A stretch of 64,000 bases of DNA from an uncultured Chloroflexia bacterium (lineage in GTDB: Bacteria > Chloroflexota > Dehalococcoidia > GIF9 > AB-539-J10). The stretch covers positions 280,769-344,768 of the forward strand of contig CAVYNS010000002.1 in NCBI GenBank assembly GCA_963769975.1, in the 5' to 3' direction. The notes below the pieces were generated by a model that saw only the letters and a list, made by a program, of their open reading frames with translations, was not told the origin of the DNA and ran no database searches. Below, piece by piece: positions 8,064-33,321 of this stretch (position 1 is its first letter; every line of letters starts with the position of its first letter). The position numbers and the translations under genes are program-made.

Positions 8064-8075
8064 AAAAATAAATTG

Positions 8076-11891: not shown

Positions 11892-11892
11892 A

Positions 11893-11995
11893 GAAAATCA
11901 AAGGTCAAAAGTCAAAAATCAAATTTTTAACTTTTGCTTTGTCATTTTGCACTTTTATTTTTGCTTTTTGCATTCCCGAGGGATTTGTTTGGGAT
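11893..11995. repeat. AT-rich intergenic repeat, family member 1 (caaaagtcaaaaatcaaa..ttgctttgtcattttgcacttttatttttgctttttgcatt)
   Basis: Shares the tgtcattttgca / ttttatttttg core with 18662-18770, 33322-33420 (reverse orientation) and 35185-35306. Confidence 0.6.
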
Positions 11996-12002
11996 TTAGA
12001 AA

Positions 12003-14114
12003 TTAGAATTTCTCCTGCTCGGGTGGACCTTCTTCCACCAAACCGGCTTGTTGCAGCGCTTCAAAAAGGCGGGCAGCTCTAGGATAGCCAATACGAAGAC
12101 GGCGCTGTAAGAAAGAGGTGGAGACATGTTTGTATTCTTGTGCCAGGCGCTTGGCTTCTTCCAAAAGAGGGTCGGGAGGAGCAGCTATTTGAGCACCTAA
12201 GAGTCGCTCAGCTACCTCATCAAAGTCAACAGAGCTCACCGTAATCTGCCGTTGATTCCCCCAGAAATACACCAATCTCTCGATCTCAGCATCAGAAACA
12301 AAGCTTCCTTGAAGACGCTTAGGCTTGCTAGCTTCAGTAGGCATGTAGAGCATATCCCCTCTACCTAGCAATTTCTCGGCACCCACCATGTCCAGTATAG
12401 TCCGGGAATCCACCTGAGAAGTAACGGCGAAACTAATACGGGTCGGAAAGTTAGCTTTAATAAGTCCGGTAACCACATCTACTGAAGGGCGTTGTGTAGC
12501 TACAACGAGATGAATGCCTGTAGCTCGTGACAATTGAGCCAACCGACAAAGCGTATGTTCCACCTCATCGGAAGCTGTCATCATTAAATCAGCCAGTTCG
12601 TCAATGAGGAGCACTAAATAGGGCAACCCCTCTCCAGGTGCGCGGTCTTTGTTATAACCTTCAATATTGCGTGCTCCCGCCTTAGCAAACTGACGATATC
12701 GACTATCCATCTCCTGATTAAGCCATCTTAAAGCCTTTATCGCCTTATCAGTATCCACAACCACAGGGGCAAGTAATTGAGGTACCCCGTTAAAAGTCAC
12801 TAACTCCACCCTCTTGGGGTCGATCATGATGAACCGAACGTCGTCGGGGCTGTTGTGTAAAAGCAAGCAACAAATAATAGAGTTAAGACAAACAGTTTTA
12901 CCACTGCCGGTAGCTCCAGCGATAAGTAAATGCGGCATCCTGGTTAGGTCGGCTGCCACCGCCTCACCACCAGCACCTTTACCCAAAGCGATAGTGAGCT
13001 TGGAGCGGGCTCTAATCTTTTGAAAAGCAGCGCTCTCTATGGCACCGCGCAGGGCAACTGAGCCGAACACAGTGTTAGGAACCTCAATGCCCACCACCGG
13101 TGCCCCGGGCACAGGAGCCTCAATCCTGATGCTGGGCGCAGCCAGGGCTAAAGCTAAATCATTAGCCAAAGAGGTAATGCGGTCTACCCTTACCCTAGTT
13201 CGGGATACTTCTTCCACCTTCGTTTCATAGCTACCATTCTTACCCTTTTCTCTTATTTCCTTATATTTCTTGTCCCAACCAGGCTCAACACCAAACTGTG
13301 TCACCGTAGGGCCTATGTTTATCTGCACAACCTTGGTTTCTACCCCATAACTTGCCAGAGCTTCCTCAATCAATCGGGCTCGTTGGTCAATGGCATCCTT
13401 GTCCAATTTCATCTCAACTGGCTTATCCAGGATATCAATCGGCGGAAGATGCCATCCTCCGGGGGTGAGAATTGGTTCGTGTTCTGATTGCCACACGGGA
13501 GGAGATGGAGCAGGCTTTGCCTCCTCTTCACTGACTGCCTCTGCTTCAGGAGAGGCAGCTTTAGCAGGAGCTTTCCCTCTCGAAATCTTCCTTGAACGAG
13601 GTTGGAAACCTTTGGTCAAGAGACGCCAGCCACGCTTAGCGACGTCCCAACACCTCCCAGGAATGATGAAAATAATGCCCAGAAGGACAAGTCCGGTTAC
13701 TAGAAGTCCTCCAACTATATTGGGAGAATGCATTACTATGCTCTGTCCGATACTTCCTCCCAGTGTAGCATCTTTCAAAATACCTCCCCCGTGGAAGAAA
13801 GCCAGAATGCCCCACACGGCACAAGCCAGGCTAATGCCCCCGAGAACCCAGTTCCACCTCTGTTTCACAACAGAGAATTGGCGCCGCCATGCCACCCAGA
13901 TCAGCAAGCCCAAAGCGATGGCCATTATTATTAATCCATAGCCAAACAATTTGAGTATGTTGCCCCACAACACATACAGCAGGACTACCACTACGATAAT
14001 TAAGATAAGCCTTCGTACCACCGGTGAAGCGATGAAGCTGAAGAATCGCTTCCATGCTGACTGATTTCCCTTTGCCTTCCGCCCCGACTTAGATCCACTT
14101 CTTGTTTTAGCCAC
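12003..14114 (-). CDS. ftsK: DNA translocase FtsK/SpoIIIE
   Basis: N-terminal TM segment, a Pro/Glu-rich linker, Walker A (LLIAGATGSGKT) and a C-terminal gamma domain. Confidence 0.9.
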   Translation of the reverse strand: MAKTRSGSKSGRKAKGNQSAWKRFFSFIASPVVRRLILIIVVVVLLYVLWGNILKLFGYGLIIMAIALGLLIWVAWRRQFSVVKQRWNWVLGGISLACAVWGILAFFHGGGILKDATLGGSIGQSIVMHSPNIVGGLLVTGLVLLGIIFIIPGRCWDVAKRGWRLLTKGFQPRSRKISRGKAPAKAASPEAEAVSEEEAKPAPSPPVWQSEHEPILTPGGWHLPPIDILDKPVEMKLDKDAIDQRARLIEEALASYGVETKVVQINIGPTVTQFGVEPGWDKKYKEIREKGKNGSYETKVEEVSRTRVRVDRITSLANDLALALAAPSIRIEAPVPGAPVVGIEVPNTVFGSVALRGAIESAAFQKIRARSKLTIALGKGAGGEAVAADLTRMPHLLIAGATGSGKTVCLNSIICCLLLHNSPDDVRFIMIDPKRVELVTFNGVPQLLAPVVVDTDKAIKALRWLNQEMDSRYRQFAKAGARNIEGYNKDRAPGEGLPYLVLLIDELADLMMTASDEVEHTLCRLAQLSRATGIHLVVATQRPSVDVVTGLIKANFPTRISFAVTSQVDSRTILDMVGAEKLLGRGDMLYMPTEASKPKRLQGSFVSDAEIERLVYFWGNQRQITVSSVDFDEVAERLLGAQIAAPPDPLLEEAKRLAQEYKHVSTSFLQRRLRIGYPRAARLFEALQQAGLVEEGPPEQEKF

Positions 14115-20234: not shown

Positions 20235-21035
20235 ATGAAATTCGTCGATAAACTGCTTAACGCCAGCCGAAAGAATAAGAGCTGGCTGTGCATCGGACTG
20301 GACCCCGACCCGGAGCTTATGCCTGCAGTAGACGTTTTACAATTCAACAAAGCCATCATCGAGGCCACCTCCGACCTGGTCTGCGCTTATAAACCCAATC
20401 TAGCTTTCTATGAAGCTTTAGGAACCGAAGGGCTGGCTACCCTGGAGAAGACCGTTAAATATATACCCGGTGATATTCCTGTAATTGGTGATGCCAAGCG
20501 CGGAGACATCGGCAACACTGCCAGGGCTTATGCTAAGGCTCTCTTTTCGGTTCTGGGCTTCGATGCCGCTACTGTCAATCCCTACCTTGGCTTCGATTCC
20601 ATAGAGCCGTTTATTAATTATCAAGATAAAGGGGTATTTATCCTGTGCCGAACATCCAACCGCGGAGCCACCGATTTCCAAGACCTTCTCACCAATGGCC
20701 TGCCGCTATACGAAGCAGTAGCCCAAAAAGCCAAAGAATGGGATATTCATGGCAATATCGGCCTGGTAGTCGGGGCGACCTATCCCGAGGAGTTAAAGAA
20801 AGTCCGCTCAATTTGCCCCGAAATGCCTTTGCTTATTCCGGGCATTGGCGCTCAGAGAGGAGACCTGGCTTCAGCAGTCGGCTACGGAGTGGATGCCCGG
20901 GGCGAGAAGGCGATTATCAATGTGTCCAGGCAAATTCTTTATGCTTCCAAGGAAAAGGATTTTGCCCAGGCGGCTAGAAACATAGCTGAAAAAATACGCC
21001 AGCAAATCAATGACTGCAGAAATAAAGCTCGGTGA
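20235..21035 (+). CDS. pyrF: Orotidine 5'-phosphate decarboxylase (type 2, long form)
   Basis: WLCIGLDPD..DAKRGDIGNTA catalytic motifs. Confidence 0.9.
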   Translation: MKFVDKLLNASRKNKSWLCIGLDPDPELMPAVDVLQFNKAIIEATSDLVCAYKPNLAFYEALGTEGLATLEKTVKYIPGDIPVIGDAKRGDIGNTARAYAKALFSVLGFDAATVNPYLGFDSIEPFINYQDKGVFILCRTSNRGATDFQDLLTNGLPLYEAVAQKAKEWDIHGNIGLVVGATYPEELKKVRSICPEMPLLIPGIGAQRGDLASAVGYGVDARGEKAIINVSRQILYASKEKDFAQAARNIAEKIRQQINDCRNKAR

Positions 21036-21201
21036 CGTAGTCCGGCTGCGCAAAGCGCACCCCTGCGGCAGCTATGAATGGGAGGTGGTAAGGGTGAGCA
21101 CCGACATCGGCCTTAAATGTCGCAAATGCCAGAGAAGGGTGCTTTTGGCCAGAGAAGTGTTTGGGAGAAGGCTGAAAGAGTTTGTCTCCAAAGGTGACTA
21201 A
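21010..21201 (+). CDS. DUF951-family small protein (63 aa; HPCG...W..C.KC motif). It is the intact reference copy of the repeated segment.
   Basis: LRKAHPCGSYEWEVVRVSTDIGLKCRKCQRRVLLAREVF matches the conserved DUF951 pattern. Its 3' half plus about 90 bp downstream is repeated at 24195-24352 and 26234-26392. Confidence 0.6.
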   Translation: MTAEIKLGDVVRLRKAHPCGSYEWEVVRVSTDIGLKCRKCQRRVLLAREVFGRRLKEFVSKGD

Positions 21202-21358
21202 CTAACTAGCTTCGCGCCAATGAAAAGTCCCTGCGATTGGTTTGTGCACTGACGTAACAAAACAGGCTAATGTGTCCTAACCACTAGATTATGACCTCTA
21301 GTTATAGTACTTTATCTCCTCTATAATCTTTGATTTATTAACGAATTTTTTTATAAAT

Positions 21359-21859
21359 ATGAAAATACTCGTTTTCTTACACGGAACAACTATAATGCAC
21401 AAAAATGCTAAGGGTCTTACTCGAGAAGAAATAATTAGGCAAGTTATCGATGGTGATGAATCTCTTCATGATTCCGCATTATACATTCCTGTCGGCAACG
21501 CTGTTAAGAAATTACAGGAATGGAAGGGACGAGGAGCAAAAATATGCTATTTAAGCTCTCATAAAAATGCTAAAGATGTTGAAAAGGACAAGTTTGTTTT
21601 GAAGAAATACGCTTTCCCCGATGGTCAAATCTTTTATCGTCGAAATAGAGAGGAATACAAGGATGTTGTTAAAAGAATTCAACCTCTTCCAGATGTGATT
21701 GTTGAAGACAATTGTGAATCAATAGGTGGAAAAGTTGAAATGGTTTATCCTAATCTTAAGCCAGAATTAAAGACCAGAATCAAATCAATTGTTGTTAAAG
21801 AGTTTGAAGGCATAGACGATATTCCTGATGAAATTTCCGAATTAACGAAACAAGATTGA
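21359..21859 (+). CDS. Hypothetical protein in a strongly AT-rich region (about 35% GC against about 50% background)
   Basis: 166-aa ORF with Lys/Glu-rich composition and AT-rich flanks (21202-21358 and 21860-22104). No family recognised. Confidence 0.5.
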   Translation: MKILVFLHGTTIMHKNAKGLTREEIIRQVIDGDESLHDSALYIPVGNAVKKLQEWKGRGAKICYLSSHKNAKDVEKDKFVLKKYAFPDGQIFYRRNREEYKDVVKRIQPLPDVIVEDNCESIGGKVEMVYPNLKPELKTRIKSIVVKEFEGIDDIPDEISELTKQD

Positions 21860-22104
21860 AAATAAGGCTTGAACTGGAACTGGTGTCTGCAAGAAGGCAA
21901 AATAAGCCCTGTTTAGCTAATAGTAGGATTGCATTGTCTTCTTCACCCAGACTACTGGAAATCCGCCTTCTGGAAAAGTCAGTGTATACTAAATTCTAAT
22001 TGAATTCGTAAATTTGGATTCGCAAAAGCCAAAATTGTTGGGTCACTTTTCAATCGTTTGTGTGAAGTAGAAATTGACCCTCTCTCATATCCAATCAGCC
22101 TGAA

Positions 22105-22704
22105 TCATTTACCGGTCAGTATGTTAAGCATTTCTAAACCGTGAATGATCATAGTCACGGCTATGGCAGCCAGCAGCAAGCTAAATACCTTGGAAACTGC
22201 CTTCAGCCCACCCTGCCCAAGAAAACGAGCCACCTGTCCTCCCGCCATAAAAATCGCCCAAGCAATAAGCATATTCAGAGCGAATGACACAAGAACCATA
22301 TAGAGAGGGTATTGAGTTGCCAATAACAACAGCGTTGTTATTGTAGCCGGTCCTACGGTTAGAGGTGTGCCAATAGGGACTACCGCTACCATTTCCTCTT
22401 TGATTAGCTCTATCATTCGTCCGGTTGTCATGTGTTTTATGGAAAGCACTAGCAGAATAAGGCCGCCAGCGATAGCAAATGAACCTACTGAAATGTTCAT
22501 TACCCGCAGAATGAACTGCCCGAAAAACAAAAATATAAGACCGACAACGGTAGCTGTTATGGTAGCCACATGGATCATCTTGTAGCGCTCTTGCTTTGAC
22601 ATGCCTTCACTCATAGAGATGACGAAGGGCAGGATGCCCAGCGCGTCAACAACGATAAATAAGGGCACAAAGGTTAATATGAAATTCTGTAAGTTGTTAT
22701 TCAA
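22105..22704 (-). CDS. MarC family (UPF0056) integral membrane protein
   Basis: Six TM helices and the PIGTPLTVGPATITT motif characteristic of MarC/UPF0056. Confidence 0.75.
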   Translation of the reverse strand: MNNNLQNFILTFVPLFIVVDALGILPFVISMSEGMSKQERYKMIHVATITATVVGLIFLFFGQFILRVMNISVGSFAIAGGLILLVLSIKHMTTGRMIELIKEEMVAVVPIGTPLTVGPATITTLLLLATQYPLYMVLVSFALNMLIAWAIFMAGGQVARFLGQGGLKAVSKVFSLLLAAIAVTMIIHGLEMLNILTGK

Positions 22705-22904
22705 GAATACTTTGATCCATTAGAGCATAATAACATTCATAGTAAGCCAAGTAGCAAGTACAGTCAATACCCCCTCGCATTAGTATTCGATGGTGCCTTT
22801 CACTATCACTGACTTGCGCTCGGACCATAGTCGCCTTTGTCGGGTAACATGTCGATGAAAAGTTGGATAACAATCCGACCAAGGGTGGGCTTGATTAGCG
22901 AAGA

Positions 22905-24128
22905 CTATGAACGAGATCGGCGAGCCCACCAGTAGTACCCTATCGTAGCAACGAACGCTATCGAGGCGATGGGTGCCCATACGAGTCTGAGATCAGAGGG
23001 GAACGCATCAAGCAGTATTCCTCCCAGCAATGGACCTATTGCTACACCTGCGGTTTCGCTTAACCCGAAAAGCCCCATATATCGTCCCCTCTGATCTTGT
23101 GGAGCCAGTTCTCCTATCACTGAGAGTTGAACCGGAGCCGATATAATCTCGCCTGTTGTAATTATCGCCATTGCTCCCAGCGCCCATCCAAATTGTGTAA
23201 TCCAACCTAAGGATAAGTAGCCTAACCCGTAAAGCACACTCCCCAGTATGAGAGCTCGGAATTTCGCTATCCGCTTGAGGGCAAGAGTCATCGGATATTG
23301 AAAGAAAATCACTATCAAGCCATTCAAAGTGAGTAATAGACCATATTGGGCGATAGAAAAGCCGACTCTATCCACGGCAAAGATAGATAAAGTACTGCCA
23401 AGCTGTCCCGCAACTATGAACACCAGGAGACTCAACACTGCGAAGACCAGGAAAGGTCGGTCGTCGGCAGTAGGAAGCATGCTACGAAAGCTTACTCTAT
23501 TACTCGTTCCATATGAAGAATCGCGAACAAAGAAAAAAACAAGGAGGTAAACGATGCCACAGGTTAAAACCGGGATCCCAAAGAGCCAGCCATAAGGCAA
23601 AAAAGTGGCCAGATATCCCCCTATGGCAGGGCCAGCAGCCCAGCCTATATTAGCTCCTATACGAATGATCCCATATGCTTCTATCAGCTTCTCTTTCGAG
23701 GTAAAATCTGCCACCATGGCTGAGATCACAGAACGTGTTGTGGTGGCCATTGACCGACCAGCGATGTAGACAATTGCAATGGCCCACACTGGAGCTGAAA
23801 TCCCAATAAGAACAGCTAGTCCTGCATACAAGAATACACTTACTAAAGCAGCCATAAGTAGAATCGGGCGCCGACCAAATCTGTCTGAAAGCGCTCCTCC
23901 AAACGCCTGACTGACGGCTGAGCAAAGCCCACCAGCCAGGAGGATCACTCCGACCATAGTCATGGGAAGACCTCTATCCTGGTAAAGATATAAAGATAGA
24001 AACGGTATACAAACGGACCAACCGATTGCTCTGAAAAACTCAATGGTGGCCATAACCCATATCGCAGATTCAAATCGGTAAAAGGCATTTCGCAATGGGC
24101 TCTTGGCTTTTCCTGATAATCCGTTCAT
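22905..24128 (-). CDS. MFS transporter
   Basis: 12-TM topology and the G..SDRFGRR motif between TM2 and TM3. Confidence 0.8.
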   Translation of the reverse strand: MNGLSGKAKSPLRNAFYRFESAIWVMATIEFFRAIGWSVCIPFLSLYLYQDRGLPMTMVGVILLAGGLCSAVSQAFGGALSDRFGRRPILLMAALVSVFLYAGLAVLIGISAPVWAIAIVYIAGRSMATTTRSVISAMVADFTSKEKLIEAYGIIRIGANIGWAAGPAIGGYLATFLPYGWLFGIPVLTCGIVYLLVFFFVRDSSYGTSNRVSFRSMLPTADDRPFLVFAVLSLLVFIVAGQLGSTLSIFAVDRVGFSIAQYGLLLTLNGLIVIFFQYPMTLALKRIAKFRALILGSVLYGLGYLSLGWITQFGWALGAMAIITTGEIISAPVQLSVIGELAPQDQRGRYMGLFGLSETAGVAIGPLLGGILLDAFPSDLRLVWAPIASIAFVATIGYYWWARRSRS

Positions 24129-24194
24129 GGCTTGCGTAAAACACCAGATTATAACCTTTTTGGGTCCGTCTGCCTTCTGGTCTAACTAATAATC

Positions 24195-24352
24195 CCTGCG
24201 GCAACTACGAAGGGGAGGTGGTGAGGGTGGGCACCGACATTGGTCTTAAATGTCTCAAATGCCAGAGAAGGGTGAAAGAATTTGTCTCCAAAAGTCACTA
24301 ACTAACCAGCTTCGTGACAATAAAAAGTATCCTACAATAGTTTTTTGTGCAG
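24195..24352 (+). pseudogene. Truncated copy 2 of the DUF951 gene 3' half plus downstream sequence, with a 33-bp internal deletion
   Basis: Aligns to 21061-21290 at about 85% identity (cctgcggca.ctacgaa.gggaggtggt.agggtg.gcaccgacat.gg.cttaaatgtc.caaatgccagagaagggtg ... aaaga.tttgtctccaaa.gt.actaactaac.agcttcg). No start codon. Confidence 0.75.
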
Positions 24353-24436
24353 TTCCAAGGCACACTATGGAGTGGAGGAGTCACAAAACGCTGGAAAGTT
24401 CAATAAAGGACGGCTAAACAATACACCATTTCTCGA

Positions 24437-24981
<545 letters not shown>

Positions 24982-24985
<4 letters not shown>

Positions 24986-25431
24986 AGCTTGTTTTCTGGT
25001 GTGAATTTCAGCGCAATGCCGTCTATGCAATAGCGTTTGCCGGTCGGTGCCGGGCCATCATTGAAAACATGACCGAGATGGGCACCACACCTGGCGCAAA
25101 GTACCTCCGTCCGCAGCCTTCCCTCACTTGTATCAGGCTGCTGAACGATATTGAGCGGTGAGACTGGTTCATAATAACTGGGCCAACCCGTCCCGGAATT
25201 GAACTTGGTTGAACTGCGAAAAAGGTCCGTGCCACAACGGACGCAGCGGAAAATACCGGGTTCATGGATCTGGTCAAATGTGCAGGTGCCCGGATCTTCA
25301 GTTCCTTTCCTGGCGGTGATTTCATACTGCTCTGCGGTCAATAGTTTCTTCCATTCTGCGTCCGTTTTCTCTACTCTCTCCACCGTCACCACCTTCTTCT
25401 GTTTAGCATCATAAATCTTGACCGTGGCCAT
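24982..25431 (-). CDS. msrB: Peptide methionine sulfoxide reductase MsrB
   Basis: Two CxxC pairs plus the RCxxCGxHLGHVF catalytic motif. A strong AGGAGGTG RBS precedes MATVKIYD. The track ORF extends to 25479. Confidence 0.9.
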
Positions 25432-25641
25432 ATGCTCACCTCCTGCAGGCTTCCTCGGCGCATTATAGCACGTAGGCAAGCTTCACCTGCCAGTCATCCG
25501 TGTCTGCAACTGTTGACATCGTATGAGTAGTAGTTTATCGTTACTGCCAAGATGAAGGCCAAAGATGCGAAACAGTCTCAGGGCAAAAATCGCCCTTTGC
25601 GGAGTTCAGTCATTTATTATGGCGACTATTAGGAGGAGCCC

Positions 25642-26148
25642 ATGAACGAAGAAGGCAAGACAATAAAAGTTCCCAACGCCATCAAAAAGATGTTGCTAGC
25701 GGATGAACAAGTTATGGCAGTCATAAAGCAATCGAGGTTGAAGGCAGCCGTCACACCCGACTCCATAATAATCACTAACCATAGAATAATCAGGTATTCT
25801 CCATCAGCCCTGGGATTACACAAGGAGATTGAAGATTACAGATATGAAGATATAGCCAATCTGAAAATCGATAAGGGAATCATGTTTGCCACCATCACTG
25901 TAAAGCGCCGATTCATGAGCGAGGATCTAATCCTGGACAACCTCCCAAAAGGTCGGGCGGATTACATTTCCAGGGCCATTCAGGAGAATCTCAGGCGAAT
26001 GAGTAGCGCCCCCGCATCCCCAGTTACAACCAATCAGCGGGTTTCTCTAACTTCGCCAGAGGACCCTCTTCAAGTCCTGAAGCTTCGCTTTGCCAGAGGA
26101 GAGATTACTAAGGAACAATTTGAGGAAATGAAGAGAGCGTTGGAGTAG
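25642..26148 (+). CDS. Bacterial PH-domain (bPH_2/YdbS-like) protein with a C-terminal SHOCT domain
   Basis: The central region matches bPH_2 (ITNHRIIRY...IEDYRYEDIANLKIDKGIMFATITV). The C-terminus LKLRFARGEITKEQFEEMKRALE is a SHOCT motif. Confidence 0.6.
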   Translation: MNEEGKTIKVPNAIKKMLLADEQVMAVIKQSRLKAAVTPDSIIITNHRIIRYSPSALGLHKEIEDYRYEDIANLKIDKGIMFATITVKRRFMSEDLILDNLPKGRADYISRAIQENLRRMSSAPASPVTTNQRVSLTSPEDPLQVLKLRFARGEITKEQFEEMKRALE

Positions 26149-26233
26149 ACTTGGCTGACGCCCTGATTGCTCTCTATCCTGTTCCCGTAGCTGTGATGAG
26201 AGAGGGACGGAGTCTGCGTACACCTCTTGAATG

Positions 26234-26392
26234 CCAACGAAAGGTGCTTTTGGCAAGAAACGTGCCTGGGAGAAGGGTGAAAGAATTTGTCTCCAAAAGT
26301 GACTACCTAACCAGCTTCGCGACAATAAAAAGCACCCTGCGACGGTTTATGTAGTGAGGTAACAAAACTGGCTATTGTGTAATTCCACCAGG
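26234..26392 (+). pseudogene. Truncated copy 3 of the DUF951 gene 3' end plus about 100 bp of downstream sequence
   Basis: Aligns to 21130-21290 (ca..gaa.ggtgcttttggc.aga.a.gtg..tgggagaagg.tgaaaga.tttgtctccaaa.gtgacta.ctaac.agcttcgcg.caat.aaaag..ccctgcga..gtt..tg...tga.gtaacaaaac.ggcta.tgtgt). The track ORF 26151..26354 is a frame artefact across it. Confidence 0.75.
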
Positions 26393-26483
26393 TTGCGGTG
26401 TCTAAGACATACTACAGACAACAAATATTTGCATCAATTTACGATATGAAGTGATTGGCGTATAATAGCATCAGGAGTTACAA

Positions 26484-29400
26484 ATGAGCATTGAGGATGA
26501 GATTGTGTCCGAGATTGTAGGAGGCAGAGGTGTACTCTTTGTTGGTGCGGGTCTATCAGTTGGAGCCGGCCTTCCAAGCTGGAAGGAGTTCGCCTCGGAA
26601 TTGACTGCCGAAATAGGTTGTCCCACAACACTTAGTCCTCTAGATATAGCTCAATACTATGAGAATGAAAAGGGACGTCATGCATTATATACAAAGCTAC
26701 GAACTAAGTTCAAGGAGAAAACAGTTAGATATAGCGAGAATCATCGGAAGCTTGTGTCTCTCGGATTCAGGACAATCATAACAACTAACTATGACAAATT
26801 GCTGGAAGACGCGCTATGCGCATGTGGCTATGAATTTCACTCGATCATAAATGACTATGATGGGTCCTATTGGGATGAGGAGAATGAAATACAACTGCTA
26901 AAACTACACGGCGACATTGAGAACGTCGACAGTATTGTGCTAACTAGGAGAGATTACAGCTTATTCTTCCGTACACATGCAATAATCACACGTCGGTTAC
27001 ATGCGATACTTCTGGATCATTCATTGATTTTTGTTGGGTATAATTTGGAAGACCCTGATTTCAACTTTGTCTTTAACGAGATCACTCTTGACCTTCAAGA
27101 ACACCGCTTGCCATCTTACTTCATGGGTTTCAATGTTGACAGATTTCGTCAGAAAGAACTAGATAGACTGGGAGTAAAAGTATTTAGTGTCGCAACTGAT
27201 GTCGTTGAACCTGATGCTGGTTATCAAGAAGCATACAACGTTGCGTTAGAAAAGAAACTCGATGACCTGAGCAGTAAAACCAAAGCCAGAAGCGATGAAA
27301 GATTAAAACCAGTGGCCAAAGAAAGTCAAGAATTCTCGCTTGTCAACGAGATCTATGACCTACTCCAAGCCATGGGATACAAGGTTTCAAGGCTGGCTGG
27401 CACTGCGTCTCGTCAGCGGCTTCTTGCAGAAAAGAAAAGTGAAGGAAAGAATATCAAGAGATTCATACTATGTTCTTCCTCTGACGTGGGGTCTGGTGAT
27501 GTTGATGCCATGTTGGCTGAGATCGCTACTGATCCTGATGCTGACGCTTGGCTTATTGCACCAAGCAAGGCTAGGATATCACCGGAATCCCGCACCTTGG
27601 CCGAAAAAAGTGGCCGTGTGCAAGTTTTGTCGCTGGCAGATTTCTATGCTCAAATGGTTCCCTTCGCGGACTATCTTGAATCTTTAGTGCGACAGTACGA
27701 GTCTAGCGATATACCGCGTTACTATGTAGAACTCGGATCTCGAAAACCGCAATTTGATATCACGCGCTCTACAGTCATAAGAGAAGACTCCTTTAGACCG
27801 ATCGACGAATATATAGACAGCTGGCTTCAGAGTTCTGACCAAAATCATATATCTATTCTGGGAGATTATGGCACCGGAAAGACTTGGTTTTGCAGAAGAT
27901 ACGCAGCGAAGCAGGCGAAAAGGTATCTCGCTGACCCAGAGCGCAACAGGATTCCCATACTAATCTCCCTGAAAGAATTCACTAAAACACTAAAGATAGA
28001 GCCACTGATAACAGATGCCTTGGTTAATGCCTATGGCTTACAGCTGGGGGGTGGATTTGCGACGTTCCAGCACTTGAATCAGTACGGTAAGCTACTAATA
28101 ATATTTGACGGCTTCGACGAGATGGAAAGCAGAGTCGACCAAATAGTGACAACAAAGAACTTCGAAGAACTGGCTAAGGCCGTTGTGCCCGGTGGTAAGA
28201 GCAAAGTTATCCTTACATGTCGCACGCCTTATTTTCAAAGCAACTTACAGGAAGTCACCCTCCTTATGGGGGAAGGTGAGGACCGCATTGACTTAAGAAG
28301 TCGCCCCAATTTTGAGATTATGTATTTGGAACCGTTCAATGACGAACAAGTGAAAGAAGCTCTAAGAAAACGTGACCCAGACTCATGGCAATACTACTAT
28401 CAACAAATAAAAGCTACGTACGATTTGCCCAACTTATCGAGGCGTCCTGTGATGATCGAAATGATAGTTGATACTCTACCTGATGTGAAGGATTTGCCAG
28501 AGATAAACTCCGCGATCCTTTACAGGAAATACACTGAGCGGTGGATAAAAAAGAACATACAGGAAGAGAGAACTTTCCTAGACGCGGAGAGCAAGCAAAT
28601 CTTTATGGAGGAATTGGCTTGGGAGATGTACAGGGCGGGAATGTCGAGCATTCACTTCACGGATATACCAGCGAGGGTACAGCGTCATTTTGGGCTTTCC
28701 TCCAAGACCACCATCGACTATTACGAACATGATATACGGGCACAGTCTTACTTGGTTCGCGACCATCAAGGCAATTATTCTTTTGCTCACAAATCCTTCT
28801 TGGAGTTTTTCGTCGCCTCGAGGATACTCAGGTCTATTAGAAAGAATGACGAAAGTCTTCTGGCAGAGCGTGGTCTGACGATAGAAATCTATGACTTTCT
28901 CATACATATGCTGGGACAAAGTGAACTCCTTATGGTGCACCAATGGCTTGAAACATCGCGTGAGTCAAAAGTTCGGCGAACTTGTGTGGTAATGTTGGGA
29001 CGACTCAAGGATTCATCTGCATGTGACGTGCTAGGTAAGGTTCTCACTGAGGACCCGCAGCCAAGTATTCGGCGTAGAGCGGCTAGAGCTCTTCTGTACA
29101 CTGGAGGGGAGAAAGCCAAGAAGATAATATTAGAAAGACTAAAACACGAGACAGACGGCAAGGTAATCCGCACCATCCTTGGGGCTTTCCCACATAAAGA
29201 TGCGAGTTTGGAACCAACGGTTGAGGATATAGCCCGAAATCGCGCTATCGAAGATGGTGTCCGGAATTCAGCCATAATAAGGGTTGCAAAGCTAGACCAG
29301 AAAGAAAAGGCAACATTATTGGCACAGCAATACTTTAGTGAGAATATTGACCAGTATAGAGGAAAGGAACAAAAGATACTAGAAGTCATAGACGAGGAGG

Positions 29401-29732
29401 CCGCTGCCGAAATAGCTGAGAGGATTCTCACATCTTCTAGAAGGCCCGAACAGAAACTACGCGCGATAGTCTATCTTCCCCCCAAAATAGATACTAGTCT
29501 AACACCATATGTCACCAGCGTGCTTCAGTCTTTCCTTCACGACCTCCAATATGCACAGAGCAAGGTCAAGTATCCTACCAAAAAAGTAAAAATTGGAGAG
29601 GAATTGGTAGCAAAATGCCGTAAAATTAGTGACTCACCTGACATTGCTAAGCTTTGCCGCTCAATTGAAGCGGTAATTGGCCAGTTAGATGAACGCTTTG
29701 CATCCGAAACAGGCGGGACAAAACCAGACTAG
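26484..29732 (+). CDS. SIR2-like domain fused to a NACHT/STAND NTPase with C-terminal HEAT repeats (1082 aa). It is a candidate bacterial NLR-like (bNACHT/Avs-like) antiphage protein.
   Basis: The N-terminus VLFVGAGLSVGAGLPSWKEF plus IITTNYDKLLE and LLKLHGDIEN form a SIR2 catalytic GAGxS/N-D/H set. The middle carries Walker A ILGDYGTGKTWF and NACHT-type Walker B LLIIFDGFDEM. The C-terminus has HEAT/PBS-lyase-like repeats (RRRAARALLYTGGEKA, KVIRTILGAF). A TATAAT-type -10 and an AGGAG RBS give it its own promoter. Confidence 0.75.
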   Translation: MSIEDEIVSEIVGGRGVLFVGAGLSVGAGLPSWKEFASELTAEIGCPTTLSPLDIAQYYENEKGRHALYTKLRTKFKEKTVRYSENHRKLVSLGFRTIITTNYDKLLEDALCACGYEFHSIINDYDGSYWDEENEIQLLKLHGDIENVDSIVLTRRDYSLFFRTHAIITRRLHAILLDHSLIFVGYNLEDPDFNFVFNEITLDLQEHRLPSYFMGFNVDRFRQKELDRLGVKVFSVATDVVEPDAGYQEAYNVALEKKLDDLSSKTKARSDERLKPVAKESQEFSLVNEIYDLLQAMGYKVSRLAGTASRQRLLAEKKSEGKNIKRFILCSSSDVGSGDVDAMLAEIATDPDADAWLIAPSKARISPESRTLAEKSGRVQVLSLADFYAQMVPFADYLESLVRQYESSDIPRYYVELGSRKPQFDITRSTVIREDSFRPIDEYIDSWLQSSDQNHISILGDYGTGKTWFCRRYAAKQAKRYLADPERNRIPILISLKEFTKTLKIEPLITDALVNAYGLQLGGGFATFQHLNQYGKLLIIFDGFDEMESRVDQIVTTKNFEELAKAVVPGGKSKVILTCRTPYFQSNLQEVTLLMGEGEDRIDLRSRPNFEIMYLEPFNDEQVKEALRKRDPDSWQYYYQQIKATYDLPNLSRRPVMIEMIVDTLPDVKDLPEINSAILYRKYTERWIKKNIQEERTFLDAESKQIFMEELAWEMYRAGMSSIHFTDIPARVQRHFGLSSKTTIDYYEHDIRAQSYLVRDHQGNYSFAHKSFLEFFVASRILRSIRKNDESLLAERGLTIEIYDFLIHMLGQSELLMVHQWLETSRESKVRRTCVVMLGRLKDSSACDVLGKVLTEDPQPSIRRRAARALLYTGGEKAKKIILERLKHETDGKVIRTILGAFPHKDASLEPTVEDIARNRAIEDGVRNSAIIRVAKLDQKEKATLLAQQYFSENIDQYRGKEQKILEVIDEEAAAEIAERILTSSRRPEQKLRAIVYLPPKIDTSLTPYVTSVLQSFLHDLQYAQSKVKYPTKKVKIGEELVAKCRKISDSPDIAKLCRSIEAVIGQLDERFASETGGTKPD

Positions 29733-29838
29733 GACTGCCTATTCATAACGCCCATATAATCCAAATTTGCCACCCTCATCATAGCTAACATAAAGCTACA
29801 CAAAATGATGAAAAGTTGGATAATAATCCGACCAAGGG

Positions 29839-29979
29839 GTTGGCTTTATCTGCTCTGTGTGCTAGTTTATATACTGTTTTATGGCTCGTTGTATTTTTCA
29901 TATTGATTTGGATGCCTTCTTCGTTTCTGTGGAGCAGGCGTTTAACCCCGAGCTGAAGGAAAAACCACTAGTAACCTGA
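29839..29979 (+). pseudogene. Duplicated dinB promoter and 5' end (truncated, 32 codons then stop). It is a direct repeat of 32110-32250.
   Basis: gttggctttatctgctctgtgtgcta.tttatat.ctgttt.atggctcg.tgtat.tt.catattgatttggatgccttcttcgtttctgtggagcagg aligns at about 88% identity with the region upstream of and into dinB. The ATG sits at the same offset (42 bp) in both copies. Confidence 0.8.
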
Positions 29980-30064
29980 ACCTATACTCCTCTTTATGTT
30001 CTTAATTATTATAGCGAAAGCGACAGTATTAAATAGATAAATTCCCTGCGACTCTCCAGATTGT

Positions 30065-30694
30065 TCATTGCCGGAGTTTTCTCCGCGATACAAAGTAAAG
30101 GGCCAGCCACACTATTGAGCTGAAAATGATGAAACCTACTATAAGATAGGGTGCCGGATTCGTTTTTACATTCTCCAGTCCAAATCGAGCGCCAAGACCA
30201 AGCAGGATGATCACGATGTCATAGGTGAGCGAGGAGAGGGCTACGCCCAAAGCGAAGTCGGAATATCGCAGGCGCGTGACTCCGGCAGCCAGCGATGGTA
30301 TCTGCAGCAGACCCGGCGTTAACCTCACAACGGCAATTGATAGTGCAGGCTGCTTGTTTAGTCCGGCCCTAACCCATTCTATCCGATTAGGTAGCCATGG
30401 GAAGCGCTTCCCAACGCGGTTAATGAGCGGACTCCCCAGGACACGGCTGACCCAGTAAAGTATGGCTGCTCCAACCTCCCTTCCCAGCAACAGCATCACA
30501 ACAATGAGCAATACTTGCGTTGACAGCGGACCAACATTGTAGCTGGTGAAGAATAGAAATACTTCCACTGTTAAGAGCAGGGGGACTCCGATGTCGCCGA
30601 CAATACCTAGCGAAAACAGCACGCCCAGCGCAGCGGGGTTTCCCAGGTTCACCCCGTCAGTTAATCCCGACAGCAGCGAATTCAACCATTCCAT
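30065..30694 (-). CDS. DedA/VTT-domain (SNARE-associated, TVP38/TMEM64-like) membrane protein
   Basis: Multi-TM protein with the conserved DedA core (..R..PG..R..S..AG). Confidence 0.7.
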   Translation of the reverse strand: MEWLNSLLSGLTDGVNLGNPAALGVLFSLGIVGDIGVPLLLTVEVFLFFTSYNVGPLSTQVLLIVVMLLLGREVGAAILYWVSRVLGSPLINRVGKRFPWLPNRIEWVRAGLNKQPALSIAVVRLTPGLLQIPSLAAGVTRLRYSDFALGVALSSLTYDIVIILLGLGARFGLENVKTNPAPYLIVGFIIFSSIVWLALYFVSRRKLRQ

Positions 30695-30790
30695 GAGACT
30701 ACCCTTGCCAGCCAGTCTTTCGATAAACTAGGCACGCATTTGAAGTCGAGGAGTACGAATTCTTTTGCAACAGCCATTCGCCCATCCGAA

Positions 30791-32056
30791 TTACCTTACT
30801 GACCTGATGCGCCAAACTAGTCCCGCTGCTGCCAGCGACGACAAAGTGGCCAAGAGAAAGATACCTGAATAACCCCAGCCGGAAGGCCCCAGCCAATATA
30901 GTAAAGCACCTCCTACTAAAGGAGCCAGCGTCTGCGGCAGGGTGGAGGAGAATCCCCACACGCCCAGATCCCTCGCTACACGGTTCCTGTCCGGTAAGAC
31001 ATCTAACGCCAGGGCCCAATCCACGCTGGTGTAGGCGCCATAGCCCAGACCGAACAGCACCCCGACTACCAGGATGACCTTCCAAATCGGTGCCACGACA
31101 AAGAACAAAAAAGCGACGGCCATAGCCAGGCTCGCGAAACTGACAATGCCCTTCCTCCCAATTCGGTCCGATAGAGCACCGGCAACAAGTGCGCTGGCCA
31201 GAGAGCCTCCCAGCGCTACACTGGATATCACAAGAGTCGCACCGACGAAATTCGGAAGCCCTATCCTGTCTCTGATGAAATATGCCACAAAGGTGACCAT
31301 GGCATAGAGGGCCAACATCACCAGTGCCCTGGTTATTGAAAGCCAAAGGAAATCGGGATTTTTCAGAGACTGAATCCATGACATCCGGGAAGAGGTGTGA
31401 TGCTCCGGCGCCGGGCTATCAGGCACCTTCCACACTGTGAATGCGGCTCCAAGAAGTAACACCAGGGCAAGTATCGTGTAGAAGGGATAAGTATGCCCGG
31501 GGCTGACTAGCGCGGCAGCGACACCAAAACTGGAAACAGTACCAAGCATTGACATCAGCCCCATGTATCCGGACGCTTTGCCCCGTTGCCCTTGAGGCAC
31601 CTGGTCAGGAATATAGCCTTGATAGGCAGCGCCGCTGATATTATTCCCCAGTTGCACTAATGTAAAGGCAGCCGCCAGGAGGAAAAGTGAAGTCGTCCTG
31701 GGCATCCACAGCAATCCGGCTACATTTATCAAAGCGCCACCCAGGACGAAAGGACGTCTTCTACCCCAGCCGAGCCGGCACCGGTCGGAAAATGCCCCCG
31801 CCACAGGCTGTGCCACCATGCCGATCAGAGAACCACCACCGGCAATCAACCCCAAAGCAAGGCCCTTGCTGACTTCCGGAGAACGGCTCAACACCTCAAC
31901 AGGCAAAACGACGGCTAGCATTGCGCCCCAATGGAAGTTCAGTGAAAACCAGTAGATGCTCAGATTAAGATGGTCTCTAGTGGATAGAGTCTTTTCGGAC
32001 AGGAGCGCTTCCTCCTGCATGACAGACATGTTACTACGTGAACGATTCCTGGTCAA
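30791..32056 (-). CDS. MFS transporter (second, unrelated copy)
   Basis: 12-TM topology, the GAFSDRCRLGWGRRRP loop motif and MFS-like organisation. Confidence 0.75.
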   Translation of the reverse strand: MTRNRSRSNMSVMQEEALLSEKTLSTRDHLNLSIYWFSLNFHWGAMLAVVLPVEVLSRSPEVSKGLALGLIAGGGSLIGMVAQPVAGAFSDRCRLGWGRRRPFVLGGALINVAGLLWMPRTTSLFLLAAAFTLVQLGNNISGAAYQGYIPDQVPQGQRGKASGYMGLMSMLGTVSSFGVAAALVSPGHTYPFYTILALVLLLGAAFTVWKVPDSPAPEHHTSSRMSWIQSLKNPDFLWLSITRALVMLALYAMVTFVAYFIRDRIGLPNFVGATLVISSVALGGSLASALVAGALSDRIGRKGIVSFASLAMAVAFLFFVVAPIWKVILVVGVLFGLGYGAYTSVDWALALDVLPDRNRVARDLGVWGFSSTLPQTLAPLVGGALLYWLGPSGWGYSGIFLLATLSSLAAAGLVWRIRSVR

Positions 32057-32151
32057 TAGGGGTTACGCATTTGAGAATCTGCTACAATAGAGTAATCTCC
32101 TATTACAGCGTTGGCTTTATCTGCTCTGTGTGCTAGGTTATATGCTGTTTC

Positions 32152-33321
32152 ATGGCTCGGTGTATCTTCCATATTGATTTGGATGCCTTCTTCGTTTCTG
32201 TGGAGCAGGCACTTAACCCGGAGCTGAAGGGAAAGCCGGTAATCGTGGGCGGAGACCCTGAGCGCCGCGGCGTAGTTGCCTCTGCTTCCTATGAAGCGCG
32301 CCATTTCGGCATCCACGCCGGCATGCCGCTATCCAAAGCCCGCCGCCTTTGTCCCCAGGCAATTTTTATTAGAGCTAACTTCTCACGCTACAGAGATGCT
32401 TCATCCAGGTTTATGGAAATCCTTGCCGATTTCTCCCCTGACATCGAACCTTTAGGGCTTGACGAAGCCTATCTTGATGTCACCGGATGTGTAGAACCCT
32501 ACGGTTCTCCCCGGAAACTGGCGCTGGCGATAAAAGAAAGAATAAATAAGGAGCTCCAGATCACAGCTTCCGTGGGCATAGGTACATGCAAGGTGGTGGC
32601 CAAAATTGCCTCAACCCTGTGTAAGCCCGATGGACTGCTCGAGATAGCCCCTGGAGAGGAACAGGCTTTCCTCAATCCACTACCCATAGCCAAATTACCG
32701 GGAGTGGGCGAAAAAACAGAGCAGTCATTAAAAGAGATGGAAATAACGACAATAGGAGAATTCGCCTCGCTGCCTTTAGACACGATAACAAGACAGTTGG
32801 GAGCCACTGGAGCAGTGATTCATAGCTATGCCAAGGGGATAGATGACCGAGAAGTGGAGGCGCCGGGTGAAGCTAAATCCATCAGCCAGCAGCTCACTTT
32901 TGCCCGCGATACCTTGAACCACAACTTTCTTGAGGCTAACCTGCACAGTTTATGCCAGGAGGTCTGCCAGGAGCTGCGCAGCCAAAATAAAAAGGCAAAA
33001 TGTGTAGCGATAAGACTGAGGTATGCCGACTTTAAGACAATCACCCGCCAAATCACCTTACAAGAAGCCAGCGACGTTACCCAGGTTGTCTTTGCCACAG
33101 CCCAGCAGCTGCTGAGTAAAACTCTGGCAAAACAAGAAAAACCGATACGCCTCATAGGTATTCGAATATCAAGCCTGGTTGGCAAGGAGAAACAACTTCC
33201 GATGTTTGATTCCAGGGTTGCAAAGTTCGGGCACCTAGATCAAGCCGTAGACAAAATTCGCAAGAAATATGGCCCGACAGCGATAAAAACAGGCGACGAC
33301 GTTCTTTCTGAGAGCAATTAA
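32152..33321 (+). CDS. dinB: DNA polymerase IV (Y-family translesion polymerase)
   Basis: IFHIDLDAFFVSVEQ..KPVIVGG is the Y-family palm N-terminus. The little-finger domain follows at the C-terminus. Confidence 0.9.
   Translation: MARCIFHIDLDAFFVSVEQALNPELKGKPVIVGGDPERRGVVASASYEARHFGIHAGMPLSKARRLCPQAIFIRANFSRYRDASSRFMEILADFSPDIEPLGLDEAYLDVTGCVEPYGSPRKLALAIKERINKELQITASVGIGTCKVVAKIASTLCKPDGLLEIAPGEEQAFLNPLPIAKLPGVGEKTEQSLKEMEITTIGEFASLPLDTITRQLGATGAVIHSYAKGIDDREVEAPGEAKSISQQLTFARDTLNHNFLEANLHSLCQEVCQELRSQNKKAKCVAIRLRYADFKTITRQITLQEASDVTQVVFATAQQLLSKTLAKQEKPIRLIGIRISSLVGKEKQLPMFDSRVAKFGHLDQAVDKIRKKYGPTAIKTGDDVLSESN

What the first reader, a model, noticed from the sequence alone, without database searches (positions are those of the whole stretch)
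26484..29732. Single-gene SIR2-NACHT(STAND)-HEAT protein: candidate bacterial NLR-like antiphage system
A 1082-aa protein combines three domains. The first is an N-terminal SIR2-like domain with the full catalytic set: GAGLSVGAGLPSW Rossmann motif, TTNYD and KLHGD. The second is a central NACHT-type P-loop NTPase with Walker A GDYGTGKTW and Walker B IIFDGFDEM. The third is a C-terminal HEAT/PBS-lyase-like repeat array that could act as a sensor. This effector-NTPase-repeat architecture is the hallmark of bacterial STAND/NLR-related defence proteins such as the bNACHT and Avs families, where SIR2 domains serve as NAD+-depleting effectors. The gene has its own promoter and RBS. It sits alone between duplicated att-like fragments in an accessory hotspot. 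No partner genes are evident.
Basis: partly seen in the sequence, partly recalled or inferred. Interest (0 to 1): 0.9.

Follow-up and report, generated by a model that had tools for sequence, protein, structure and literature searches.

The report
SIR2–NACHT–HEAT NLR-like defence candidate
A single 1082-residue gene in a sediment Dehalococcoidia genome encodes a bacterial NLR-like protein (NAD-degrading SIR2 effector, dead nuclease fold, NACHT switch, HEAT-repeat sensor) of an already catalogued kind, most likely an abortive-infection antiviral receptor, inserted at a hypervariable site between two core genes.

Summary

The family (SIR2/TIR/DUF4062 - iREase - NACHT - WD40/FGE/pentapeptide/HEAT) is large and already listed in the bNACHT census, but no SIR2-bearing NACHT was tested there. 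The gene is under purifying selection (ω 0.13-0.21) with a fast-evolving, lineage-specific C-terminal sensor, and it travels as a single-gene unit.

The 'att-like' repeats are really fragments of the flanking core genes DUF951 and dinB. Related genomes show an empty pyrF-DUF951-dinB site or entirely different cargo, including a TIR-NB-ARC-WD40 protein, so the site is a true accessory hotspot.

Verdict: a new member of a known kind. Function is inferred, not shown. Moderate interest.

The parts
26484..29732 (+). Complete gene, 1082 aa, SIR2 - iREase - NACHT - HEAT protein
   Evidence: ORF list. Identical protein in three public contigs. dN/dS 0.13-0.21 against two orthologs.
26484..27218 (+). 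SIR2 (SIR2_2-type) NADase-like effector domain, aa 1-245. Key residues: G21-A-G23, S25, N102 (26787-26789), D104, H142 (26907-26909).
27339..27803 (+). NACHT-associated inactive restriction-endonuclease-like fold (core aa ~286-400) plus the pre-NACHT helical/beta region up to aa 440
27804..28373 (+). NACHT nucleotide-binding domain, aa 441-630. Walker A G460-T467 with K466 (27861-27887), Walker B D542-G-F-D-E546 (28098-28124), sensor-1 R580.
28374..28853 (+). Helical and winged-helix domains of the NACHT module, aa 631-790, with conserved H769 (FAHKSF)
   Evidence: Model secondary structure. H769 conserved in 41 of 42 sequences. omega 0.03-0.05.
28854..29729 (+). C-terminal HEAT-repeat alpha-solenoid, the putative sensor, aa 791-1082. 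The distal part (aa ~920-1082) is lineage-specific.
   Evidence: Pfam HEAT_2 E=1e-12. All-helical model, pLDDT 85.9. Only the protein's own ortholog cluster matches full length among 1.84 billion representatives. Only generic solenoid fold hits. Fastest-evolving region.
26438..26477 (+). Promoter-like TTTACG-17-TATAAT (26438-26466) and Shine-Dalgarno-like AGGAG (26473-26477)
   Evidence: Consensus scan, 10 of 12 matches. Sequence read directly. Conserved in L006, absent in L004. Function not shown.
26226..26380 (+). Left scar: 3' fragment of a DUF951 gene (aa 42-67) plus its downstream sequence, duplicated from 21125-21275 and 24194-24328
   Evidence: the repeat finder D2. tblastn with an intact DUF951. 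blastn 83.6% over 152 bp.
29799..29966 (+). Right scar: DUF951 5' fragment (aa 1-10, 29808-29837) fused to a duplicate of the dinB upstream region and first ~28 codons (29839-29966)
   Evidence: the repeat finder D1, 91%. Alignment. tblastn. The same dinB fragment follows the ortholog in L006.
21010..21201 (+). Intact DUF951 gene, the left boundary of the hypervariable site (next to pyrF 20235-21035)
   Evidence: ORF. tblastn 81%. pyrF-DUF951-dinB are adjacent in L144 and L168.
32152..33321 (+). Intact dinB (DNA polymerase IV), the right boundary of the hypervariable site
   Evidence: Pfam IMS, IMS_C and IMS_HHH. Anchor for 80 related loci.

Best explanation
The gene encodes a stand-alone bacterial NLR-like immune receptor of the NACHT clade (bNACHT type) with a SIR2 NADase effector. 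Proposed mechanism: in uninfected cells the protein is a nucleotide-bound, autoinhibited monomer. A phage-derived (or infection-induced) ligand binds the fast-evolving C-terminal HEAT solenoid. This releases the NACHT module to exchange nucleotide and oligomerise. Oligomerisation brings the N-terminal SIR2 domains together into an active assembly. The SIR2 domains hydrolyse NAD+, and NAD+ depletion arrests the cell and aborts the infection. The catalytically dead REase fold between effector and NACHT probably acts as a structural adaptor or oligomerisation surface. SHOWN here: the four-module anatomy; intact catalytic and NTP-binding residues; structural similarity to defence NADases and to NLR NACHT modules; purifying selection; single-gene mobility; location in a hypervariable accessory site. 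INFERRED: NADase activity, ligand sensing by the HEAT region, oligomerisation-dependent activation, and antiphage function.
Against: No experiment exists for this protein or any close homolog. No SIR2-bearing NACHT was among the 27 bNACHTs tested; this is my inference from the Fig. S3 legend. PADLOC has no model covering the whole protein, and NCBIfam finds nothing above cut-off. In the window the neighbours are housekeeping-type genes: msrA/B, MFS, DedA/VTT, dinB. Several relatives also sit in metabolic contexts. Only a few of 90 neighbours at 15 genome loci hit defence models. The hotspot cargo in related strains is mixed, not purely defensive. The trigger cannot be inferred, because the sensor matches only generic solenoids. 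The host class, Dehalococcoidia, has few known phages.
Confidence: 0.7

Rival explanations
1. It is an NLR-like programmed-cell-death or stress sensor that responds to an endogenous cue (damage, redox or metabolite state, kin conflict) rather than to phage. The SIR2-NACHT machinery is the same, but the trigger is not viral.
For: The computational literature places such NACHT proteins in 'apoptosis-like' conflict systems. Some bNACHTs sense host-factor perturbation, for example DnaJ by bNACHT25. The gene lies among stress genes: msrA/B, dinB, lexA. The trigger is unknown.
Against: The stress-gene neighbourhood is incidental. The site holds unrelated cargo in sister strains, and the gene is absent from the closest relatives. 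A fast-evolving, lineage-specific sensor fits an arms race better than a conserved endogenous ligand. Dehalococcoidia are, to my knowledge, unicellular, so the multicellularity argument does not apply.
Confidence: 0.12
2. The SIR2 domain does not deplete NAD+. It acts as an NAD+-dependent ADP-ribosyltransferase or deacylase on a specific protein or nucleic-acid target, and the NACHT-HEAT part controls when.
Confidence: 0.1
3. It is a housekeeping or regulatory STAND ATPase (like MalT/AfsR-type regulators, TEP1 or NPHP3) with no conflict role.
For: Some STAND and NACHT proteins are non-immune. The window's neighbours are housekeeping genes.
Against: There is no DNA-binding output domain, and the effector is a defence-type NADase. 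The gene shows presence/absence polymorphism among close relatives. It sits in different genomic contexts in its orthologs. Paralogs lie in defence islands and next to a DGR.
Confidence: 0.04
4. It is a decaying, non-functional remnant carried along in a recombination-scarred region.
For: It is surrounded by gene fragments and pseudogene pieces.
Against: The 1082-codon ORF is intact in the window and in two diverged orthologs. dN/dS is 0.13-0.21 overall and 0.03-0.07 in the NACHT module. All catalytic residues are intact.
Confidence: 0.02

Closest known systems
bNACHT proteins (bacterial NLR-related NACHT proteins, Kibby et al.; census clades 1-2 with SIR2_2+NACHT(+FGE-sulfatase) architectures)
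   Same: Tripartite effector - NACHT - sensor design. The NACHT-specific D[GAS]hDE Walker B. A single-gene system. SIR2 is listed among the N-terminal effectors and HEAT among the sensors. The nearest named homologs are Chloroflexi 'SIR2 family' and 'SUMF1/FGE' NACHT proteins.
   Different: The exact string SIR2_2+NACHT+HEAT is not in the held copy of their Table S1. No SIR2-bearing member was among the 27 tested; I infer this from the Fig. S3 legend. This protein carries an iREase insert and a lineage-specific distal sensor. The host is Dehalococcoidia.
Avs5 / AVAST type 5 (SIR2-STAND; EfAvs5)
   Different: The Avs5 NTPase is described as nSTAND3, not NACHT. No PADLOC Avs model hits this protein. 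Avs5 has a short sensor, and I saw no REase-fold insert described for it. Avs5 is mostly found in Pseudomonadota.
DSR2 (defence-associated sirtuin 2)
   Same: SIR2 NADase plus an alpha-solenoid sensor in one chain. It is the top Foldseek hit, with the SIR2 domain at TM ~0.8. Its sensor binds a phage structural protein (abstract, PMC11850899).
   Different: DSR2 has no NTPase switch. NCBIfam Dsr2 scores 44 bits against a cut-off of 1400. Global TM is only 0.22-0.26.
Thoeris ThsA and Kongming KomC SIR2 NADases
   Same: The closest SIR2 domains by sequence and structure.
   Different: Those are activated by small-molecule signals through SLOG or partner proteins. Here there is no SLOG domain, no ThsB or KomA/B neighbour, and activation would come through NACHT.
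Animal NLRs (NOD2, NLRP3, NAIP/NLRC4)
   Different: Animal NLRs use adaptor-type (CARD, PYD) death-fold effectors and LRR sensors. This protein has an enzymatic SIR2 effector, an REase-fold insert and a HEAT sensor.

Membership tests
NACHT clade of STAND NTPases / bNACHT | P-loop NTPase with Walker A GxxxxGK[ST] | tested here: met
   G460-D-Y-G-T-G-K466-T467. K466 is conserved in 41 of 42 homologs.
NACHT clade of STAND NTPases / bNACHT | Walker B with the NACHT signature D[GAS]hDE, as defined by Kibby et al. | tested here: met
   D542-G543-F544-D545-E546, 98-100% conserved.
NACHT clade of STAND NTPases / bNACHT | Match to the curated NACHT profile above the gathering threshold | tested here: met
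   PF05729, 34.0 bits against a cut-off of 26.7, aa 456-629. Homologs carry precomputed PF05729. No NB-ARC or nSTAND hit.
NACHT clade of STAND NTPases / bNACHT | Helical and winged-helix extension after the NBD, and structural similarity to NLR NACHT modules | tested here: met
NACHT clade of STAND NTPases / bNACHT | Tripartite architecture: N-terminal effector, central NACHT, C-terminal repeat sensor | tested here: met
   SIR2_2, NACHT and HEAT_2, plus an extra iREase insert.
NACHT clade of STAND NTPases / bNACHT | Protection against phage that depends on NTP binding | not testable with these tools
   Needs expression, a phage challenge and a K466A mutant.
Defence-type SIR2 NADases (SIR2_2: ThsA, DSR, KomC, Avs5 effectors) | Rossmann GAGxS NAD-binding loop plus catalytic Asn and His | tested here: met
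   G21-A-G-L-S25, N102, D104, H142. Each is conserved in 35 or more of the 36-37 SIR2-bearing sequences.
Defence-type SIR2 NADases (SIR2_2: ThsA, DSR, KomC, Avs5 effectors) | Closer to the defence NADases than to deacetylase sirtuins | tested here: met
Defence-type SIR2 NADases (SIR2_2: ThsA, DSR, KomC, Avs5 effectors) | NAD+ hydrolase activity | not testable with these tools
   Needs a biochemical assay.
Avs5 (AVAST type 5, SIR2-STAND) | Avs5-type NTPase (nSTAND3) and a match to Avs5 family models | tested here: not met
DSR2 | Full-length match to the Dsr2 equivalog (SIR2 + MID + CTD, no NTPase) | tested here: not met
   NCBIfam Dsr2 44 bits against a cut-off of 1400, covering only aa 5-195.
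Thoeris ThsA | SIR2 fused to a SLOG sensor, with a ThsB TIR partner gene | tested here: not met
   The PADLOC ThsA model aligns only over aa 5-219. There is no SLOG domain and no TIR gene nearby.
   The only tRNAs are at 7989-8149. The repeats are DUF951 and dinB gene fragments of unequal extent. No integrase appears among the annotated genes from 17.6 to 37.7 kb.

The most novel reading that the evidence does not exclude
The protein may be a two-input receptor. The conserved but catalytically dead restriction-endonuclease fold, wedged between SIR2 and NACHT, would bind nucleic acid such as phage DNA or a modified base. The lineage-specific HEAT cap would bind a protein. Both inputs together would gate NACHT oligomerisation and NAD+ depletion. 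In that case the whole iREase-NACHT clade, which is widespread in Chloroflexota, Cyanobacteria, Acidobacteriota, Actinomycetes and archaea, would use a nucleic-acid co-sensing step not described for any NLR.
Probability: 0.1. Interest if true: 0.6.

Novelty: new member of a known kind. Interest (0 to 1): 0.35.

Why it matters
If the inferred function is right, this would be an NLR-like, NAD+-depleting antiviral receptor in Dehalococcoidia, an environmentally important sediment and organohalide-respiring class. To my knowledge, the immune repertoire and viruses of this class are barely characterised. SIR2-NACHT proteins are catalogued, but I found no experimental test of one. A biochemical study would show whether a NACHT switch activates SIR2 the way nSTAND3 does in Avs5. 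The locus also gives a clean natural example of single-gene immune cassettes being exchanged at a fixed chromosomal site (pyrF-DUF951 | dinB), with core-gene fragments left behind as scars. That is useful for finding further cargo in uncultured lineages. None of this overturns current understanding. It extends a known family.

Tried and rejected
1. **att site / integrative element reading: rejected.** There is no tRNA near the gene and no integrase. The repeats are gene fragments.

2. **The upstream 67-aa ORF (26151-26354) as a partner: rejected.** It has no Pfam hit in its frame. It is a chimeric remnant whose 3' part is a DUF951 fragment. It is absent from the L004 ortholog context.

3. **bPH-SHOCT, VTT/DedA and MFS2 as partners: rejected.** bPH-SHOCT is kept in close relatives that lack the gene. 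VTT and MFS2 are absent from the L006 and L004 ortholog contexts.

4. **Automated defence-system call: nothing found.** PADLOC models match only the SIR2 part, and NCBIfam has nothing above cut-off.

5. **Inferring the trigger from sensor homology: failed.** The exhaustive HMMER search and the sensor-only fold search return only generic HEAT or alpha-solenoid matches.

6. **Looking for the family on plasmids or phages:** only domain-level hits.

7. **Finding the source genome among GTDB species representatives:** not found. The host was placed by GyrB instead.

8. **Systematic defence enrichment of neighbours:** only a crude PADLOC scan of 90 neighbours was possible. The result is modest and has no proper null, so I treat it as inconclusive.

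9. **Assigning the exact Kibby clade number:** not possible without their sequences or tree. Clades 1 and 2 are the candidates.
Full report
**1. Observation**

All five quoted motifs are present:
- GAGLSVGAGLPSW, aa 21-33
- TTNYD, aa 100-104
- KLHGD, aa 140-144
- GDYGTGKTW, aa 460-468
- IIFDGFDEM, aa 539-547

Pfam calls three domains above their curated thresholds:
- SIR2_2, aa 97-230, E=3e-25
- NACHT, aa 456-629, 34 bits against a cut-off of 26.7
- HEAT_2, aa 820-896, E=1e-12

There is also a sub-threshold hit to NA-iREase1, the 'NACHT-associated inactive restriction endonuclease 1' (aa 290-381, 17 bits). PADLOC recognises only the SIR2 part: ThsA-type SIR2 at 6e-41, plus Dsr2, LmuA and PDC-S25. 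It offers no model for the whole protein. NCBIfam has nothing above cut-off.

**2. The family**

A search of 5.8 billion proteins found four further full-length orthologs at 68-84% identity besides the identical sequence itself (five in all), plus one partial protein at 75%. It then found a large family at 30-45% identity. That family shares a SIR2_2 - NA-iREase1 - NACHT core but swaps its ends:
- **C-terminal sensor:** WD40 propellers, pentapeptide repeats, FGE-sulfatase, TPR or HEAT.
- **N-terminal effector:** SIR2, TIR or DUF4062. DUF4062 was recently reported to be a TIR-like NADase.

In a 42-sequence alignment the functional residues are conserved:
- SIR2: G21, A22, G23, S25, N102, D104, H142.
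- NACHT: Walker A G463 and K466; Walker B D542-G-F-D545-E546; R580; the winged-helix H769.

D-G-F-D-E fits the D[GAS]hDE signature that Kibby et al. use to separate NACHT from other STAND NTPases.

A scan of species-representative genomes found the iREase-NACHT core in many groups:
- Bacteria: Anaerolineae and other Chloroflexota, Acidobacteriota, Cyanobacteria, Actinomycetes, Planctomycetota.
- Archaea: Heimdallarchaeota, Thermoproteota, Nitrosopumilaceae, Methanosarcinales.

**3. Structure**

Foldseek agrees. The DSR2 and KomC SIR2 domains give target TM ~0.8, and NOD2 gives E=2e-11.

The insert has the alpha-beta-beta-beta-alpha-beta topology of PD-(D/E)xK nucleases. It has no conserved acidic or lysine residues on strands 2 and 3.

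The C-terminal 292 residues form an all-helical solenoid (pLDDT 85.9). It resembles only generic HEAT and alpha-solenoid proteins.

**4. Is the gene functional, and which part evolves fastest?**

I compared the window gene with two orthologs whose DNA was recovered, L006 (84%) and L004 (81%). The ORF is intact in all three. dN/dS by region:

| Region | dN/dS |
|---|---|
| Whole gene | 0.13-0.21 |
| NACHT | 0.04-0.07 |
| Helical / winged-helix | 0.03-0.05 |
| SIR2 | 0.14-0.25 |
| HEAT | 0.16-0.25 |
| Last 82 residues | 0.27-0.63 |

Across the five orthologs, 70-77% of positions in the NACHT module (NBD and helical/winged-helix domains) are invariant. The figure is 38% for HEAT and 22% for the tail.

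An exhaustive HMMER search of 1.84 billion representatives used aa 791-1082 as the query. Only the protein's own ortholog cluster matched the whole region. Every other hit covered just the generic HEAT repeats.

So the gene has a conserved switch and a fast, lineage-specific C-terminus. That is what a ligand-facing immune sensor would look like. Relaxed constraint is an alternative explanation.

**5. Genomic setting**

The window is core chromosome: topA, ftsK, RNase J, relA/spoT, hisS, gyrB and fhs. GyrB is 90-92% identical to MAGs named Dehalococcoidia, such as SG8_51_3. The same locus occurs in sediment metagenome contigs.

The immediate neighbours are housekeeping-type genes: pyrF, MarC, MFS, msrA, msrB, bPH-SHOCT, DedA/VTT, MFS, dinB, an aminotransferase, an aldolase, lexA and S20. 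There is no integrase. The only tRNAs are about 18 kb away.

The 'att-like' repeats are real but are gene fragments. An intact DUF951 gene from the L006 contig served as the probe. It shows one intact DUF951 in the window (21010-21201) and partial copies at four places:
- 22855-22929
- 24191-24295
- 26226-26303, just upstream of the gene
- 29808-29837, just downstream of the gene

The downstream piece abuts a 128-bp duplicate of the dinB promoter-proximal region and first codons (29839-29966, 91% identical to 32110-32237).

**6. Hotspot test**

I anchored on DinB and recovered 80 related metagenome loci, then mapped the window's genes onto them.
- **Empty site.** Two loci (L144, L168) have pyrF-DUF951-dinB directly adjacent.
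- **Other cargo.** Most other loci carry 1.5-7.5 kb of unrelated cargo at that position, often with extra DUF951 or dinB fragments.
- **Closest relatives.** L092, L093 and L099 (DinB 92-94% identical) share the MarC-MFS-msrAB-bPH block. They carry about 4.9 kb of different genes (radical SAM/SPASM, RCC1-like) in place of SIR2-NACHT, VTT and MFS2.

The cargo elsewhere is mixed:
- **Conflict-type:** a TIR-NB-ARC-WD40 protein (L138), a kinase-ORC/CDC6-like ATPase with a DNA methylase (L167), a TCAD9 protein (L099), and a non-canonical HSP70 (L111, L114).
- **Other:** a giant surface protein, a molybdopterin oxidoreductase, PAS-GGDEF, MutS2 and ABC-F.

So the site is a genuine hypervariable accessory hotspot that sometimes hosts NLR-like defence genes. 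It is not a dedicated defence island.

The unit [DUF951 3' end - SIR2-NACHT - dinB 5' fragment] is shared with L006. In L004, homology is confined to the gene itself, and the gene lies beside a helicase-MTES_1575 nuclease. The gene therefore moves as a single-gene cassette.

My inference, untested, is that cassettes are exchanged by recombination anchored in the flanking core genes, with illegitimate joins leaving the scars.

**7. Context of more distant relatives**
- Two of the six more distant relatives I looked up lie in obvious conflict islands. L008 has an XRE HTH abutting the gene, a NERD-UvrD helicase, an RNaseH-helicase, SIR2-nSTAND1-HSP70 and QueC. L090 has a PIN/Phd toxin-antitoxin pair, SIR2-CHAT, SIR2-nSTAND1-FGE, an XRE HTH, UvrD plus PD-(D/E)xK, and TGT.
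- One (L091) has a reverse transcriptase plus bAvd immediately after its FGE-sulfatase sensor. This is a DGR arrangement of the kind described for putative antigen sensors (PMC10907252).
- The others are in metabolic or mixed contexts.
- A crude PADLOC scan of 90 neighbours at 15 genome loci gave only a few single-member hits: an RM pair, a PD-T4-6-like kinase, PDC-M02B, mad6 and an RT.
- No full-length relative is on a known plasmid or phage.

**8. Mechanism**

The best-supported reading is a stand-alone NLR-like abortive-infection receptor:
1. A ligand binds the HEAT sensor.
2. The NACHT module exchanges nucleotide and oligomerises.
3. The SIR2 domains assemble into an active form.
4. NAD+ is depleted and the infection aborts.

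The precedents are:
- bNACHT proteins, which show Walker-A-dependent phage defence.
- EfAvs5, where SIR2, Walker A/B and the sensor are all required and filamentation switches on the NADase.
- DSR2, a SIR2 with a solenoid sensor that binds the phage tail tube.

What is shown here is the anatomy, the intact catalytic residues, the fold relationships, the selection pattern and the mobility. Every functional step is inferred. Confidence is about 0.7.

The rivals are a non-viral trigger (0.12), a different SIR2 chemistry (0.10), a housekeeping regulator (0.04) and a decaying remnant (0.02).

**9. Comparison and novelty**

The protein meets every sequence and structure criterion I could test for the NACHT clade and the bNACHT architecture. 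It also meets the criteria for the defence-type SIR2_2 group.

It fails membership tests for three families it resembles in function:
- **Avs5:** the NTPase is of a different type and no Avs model hits.
- **DSR2:** 44 bits against a cut-off of 1400.
- **ThsA:** no SLOG domain and no ThsB partner.

The Kibby et al. census already lists SIR2_2+NACHT+FGE-sulfatase from Chloroflexi (clade 1), SIR2_2+NACHT (clade 2), NA-iREase1+NACHT proteins and many NACHT+HEAT_2 proteins. The exact SIR2+NACHT+HEAT string is not in the held table. By the Fig. S3 legend, no SIR2-bearing protein was among the 27 tested.

So this is a new member of a known kind, a recombination of catalogued modules with a lineage-specific sensor.

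Interest is moderate at 0.35. A specialist would not be surprised. The protein is an untested SIR2-NACHT example from an under-studied class, and the hotspot with its core-gene scars is a tidy side observation.

Noticed in passing
window 21010-32240 (DUF951 pieces at 21010-21201, 22855-22929, 24191-24295, 26226-26303, 29808-29837; dinB 5' duplicate at 29839-29966): The whole 11-kb stretch between pyrF-DUF951 and dinB is a mosaic of cargo blocks separated by partial copies of the two flanking core genes. Related genomes show an empty site (L144, L168) or other cargo, often with their own DUF951 or dinB fragments. This suggests repeated cassette exchange anchored in the flanking genes, possibly by homology-facilitated illegitimate recombination. 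No recombinase was seen.
   Followed up: partly
L138:106-3720 (- strand), directly upstream of dinB: In a related Dehalococcoidia contig, the position directly upstream of dinB holds a 1204-aa TIR_2 - NB-ARC - WD40 protein (the contig ends before the DUF951 side is reached). This is a different NLR-like STAND with an NADase-type effector.
   Followed up: partly
L091:13388-14973 (after the SIR2-iREase-NACHT-FGE-sulfatase gene at 10001-13273): A reverse transcriptase (RVT_1), bAvd and a short FGE-sulfatase-like ORF follow a paralog of the family. This looks like a diversity-generating retroelement aimed at the sensor domain. A DUF951 gene and an MFS gene are also nearby on that contig.
   Followed up: no
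L008:4263-4529 and L090:9738-9998: In two distant relatives a small XRE-family HTH gene (HTH_3) abuts or overlaps the start of the SIR2-iREase-NACHT gene, suggesting a transcriptional regulator. DUF6884 and Vut_1 genes also recur upstream in both. Nothing equivalent is in the window.
   Followed up: no
L099:4573-9681 (- strand) and L099:2886-4472 (- strand): At the hotspot of a close relative sits a 1703-aa protein with no Pfam match at all, next to a TCAD9 (ternary-complex-associated domain 9) protein. This may be an uncharacterised conflict system.
   Followed up: no
L167:3089-9805: Hotspot cargo in another relative: a protein kinase fused to an ORC/CDC6-like ATPase (820 aa), next to an N6/N4 DNA methyltransferase and two further genes. 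This looks like a restriction or conflict-type module.
   Followed up: no
window 26151-26354 (+): A 67-aa ORF called as a gene in the public contig (L001). It is a chimera whose 3' third is the DUF951 C-terminus ([11 protein letters not shown]). It has no Pfam hit in its frame and is probably not a real gene.
   Followed up: yes
window 8195-9559 (+): A family-4 glycosyltransferase that also passes the Pfam 'GT4-conflict' model (50 bits against a cut-off of 26), next to the tRNA-Arg/tRNA-His pair at 7989-8149. Most likely an ordinary GT4, but I did not examine it.
   Followed up: no
window 21359-21859 (+): A 166-aa ORF directly after the intact DUF951 gene with no Pfam match. It is part of the variable region and is absent between DUF951 and MarC in the close relative L092.
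   Followed up: no
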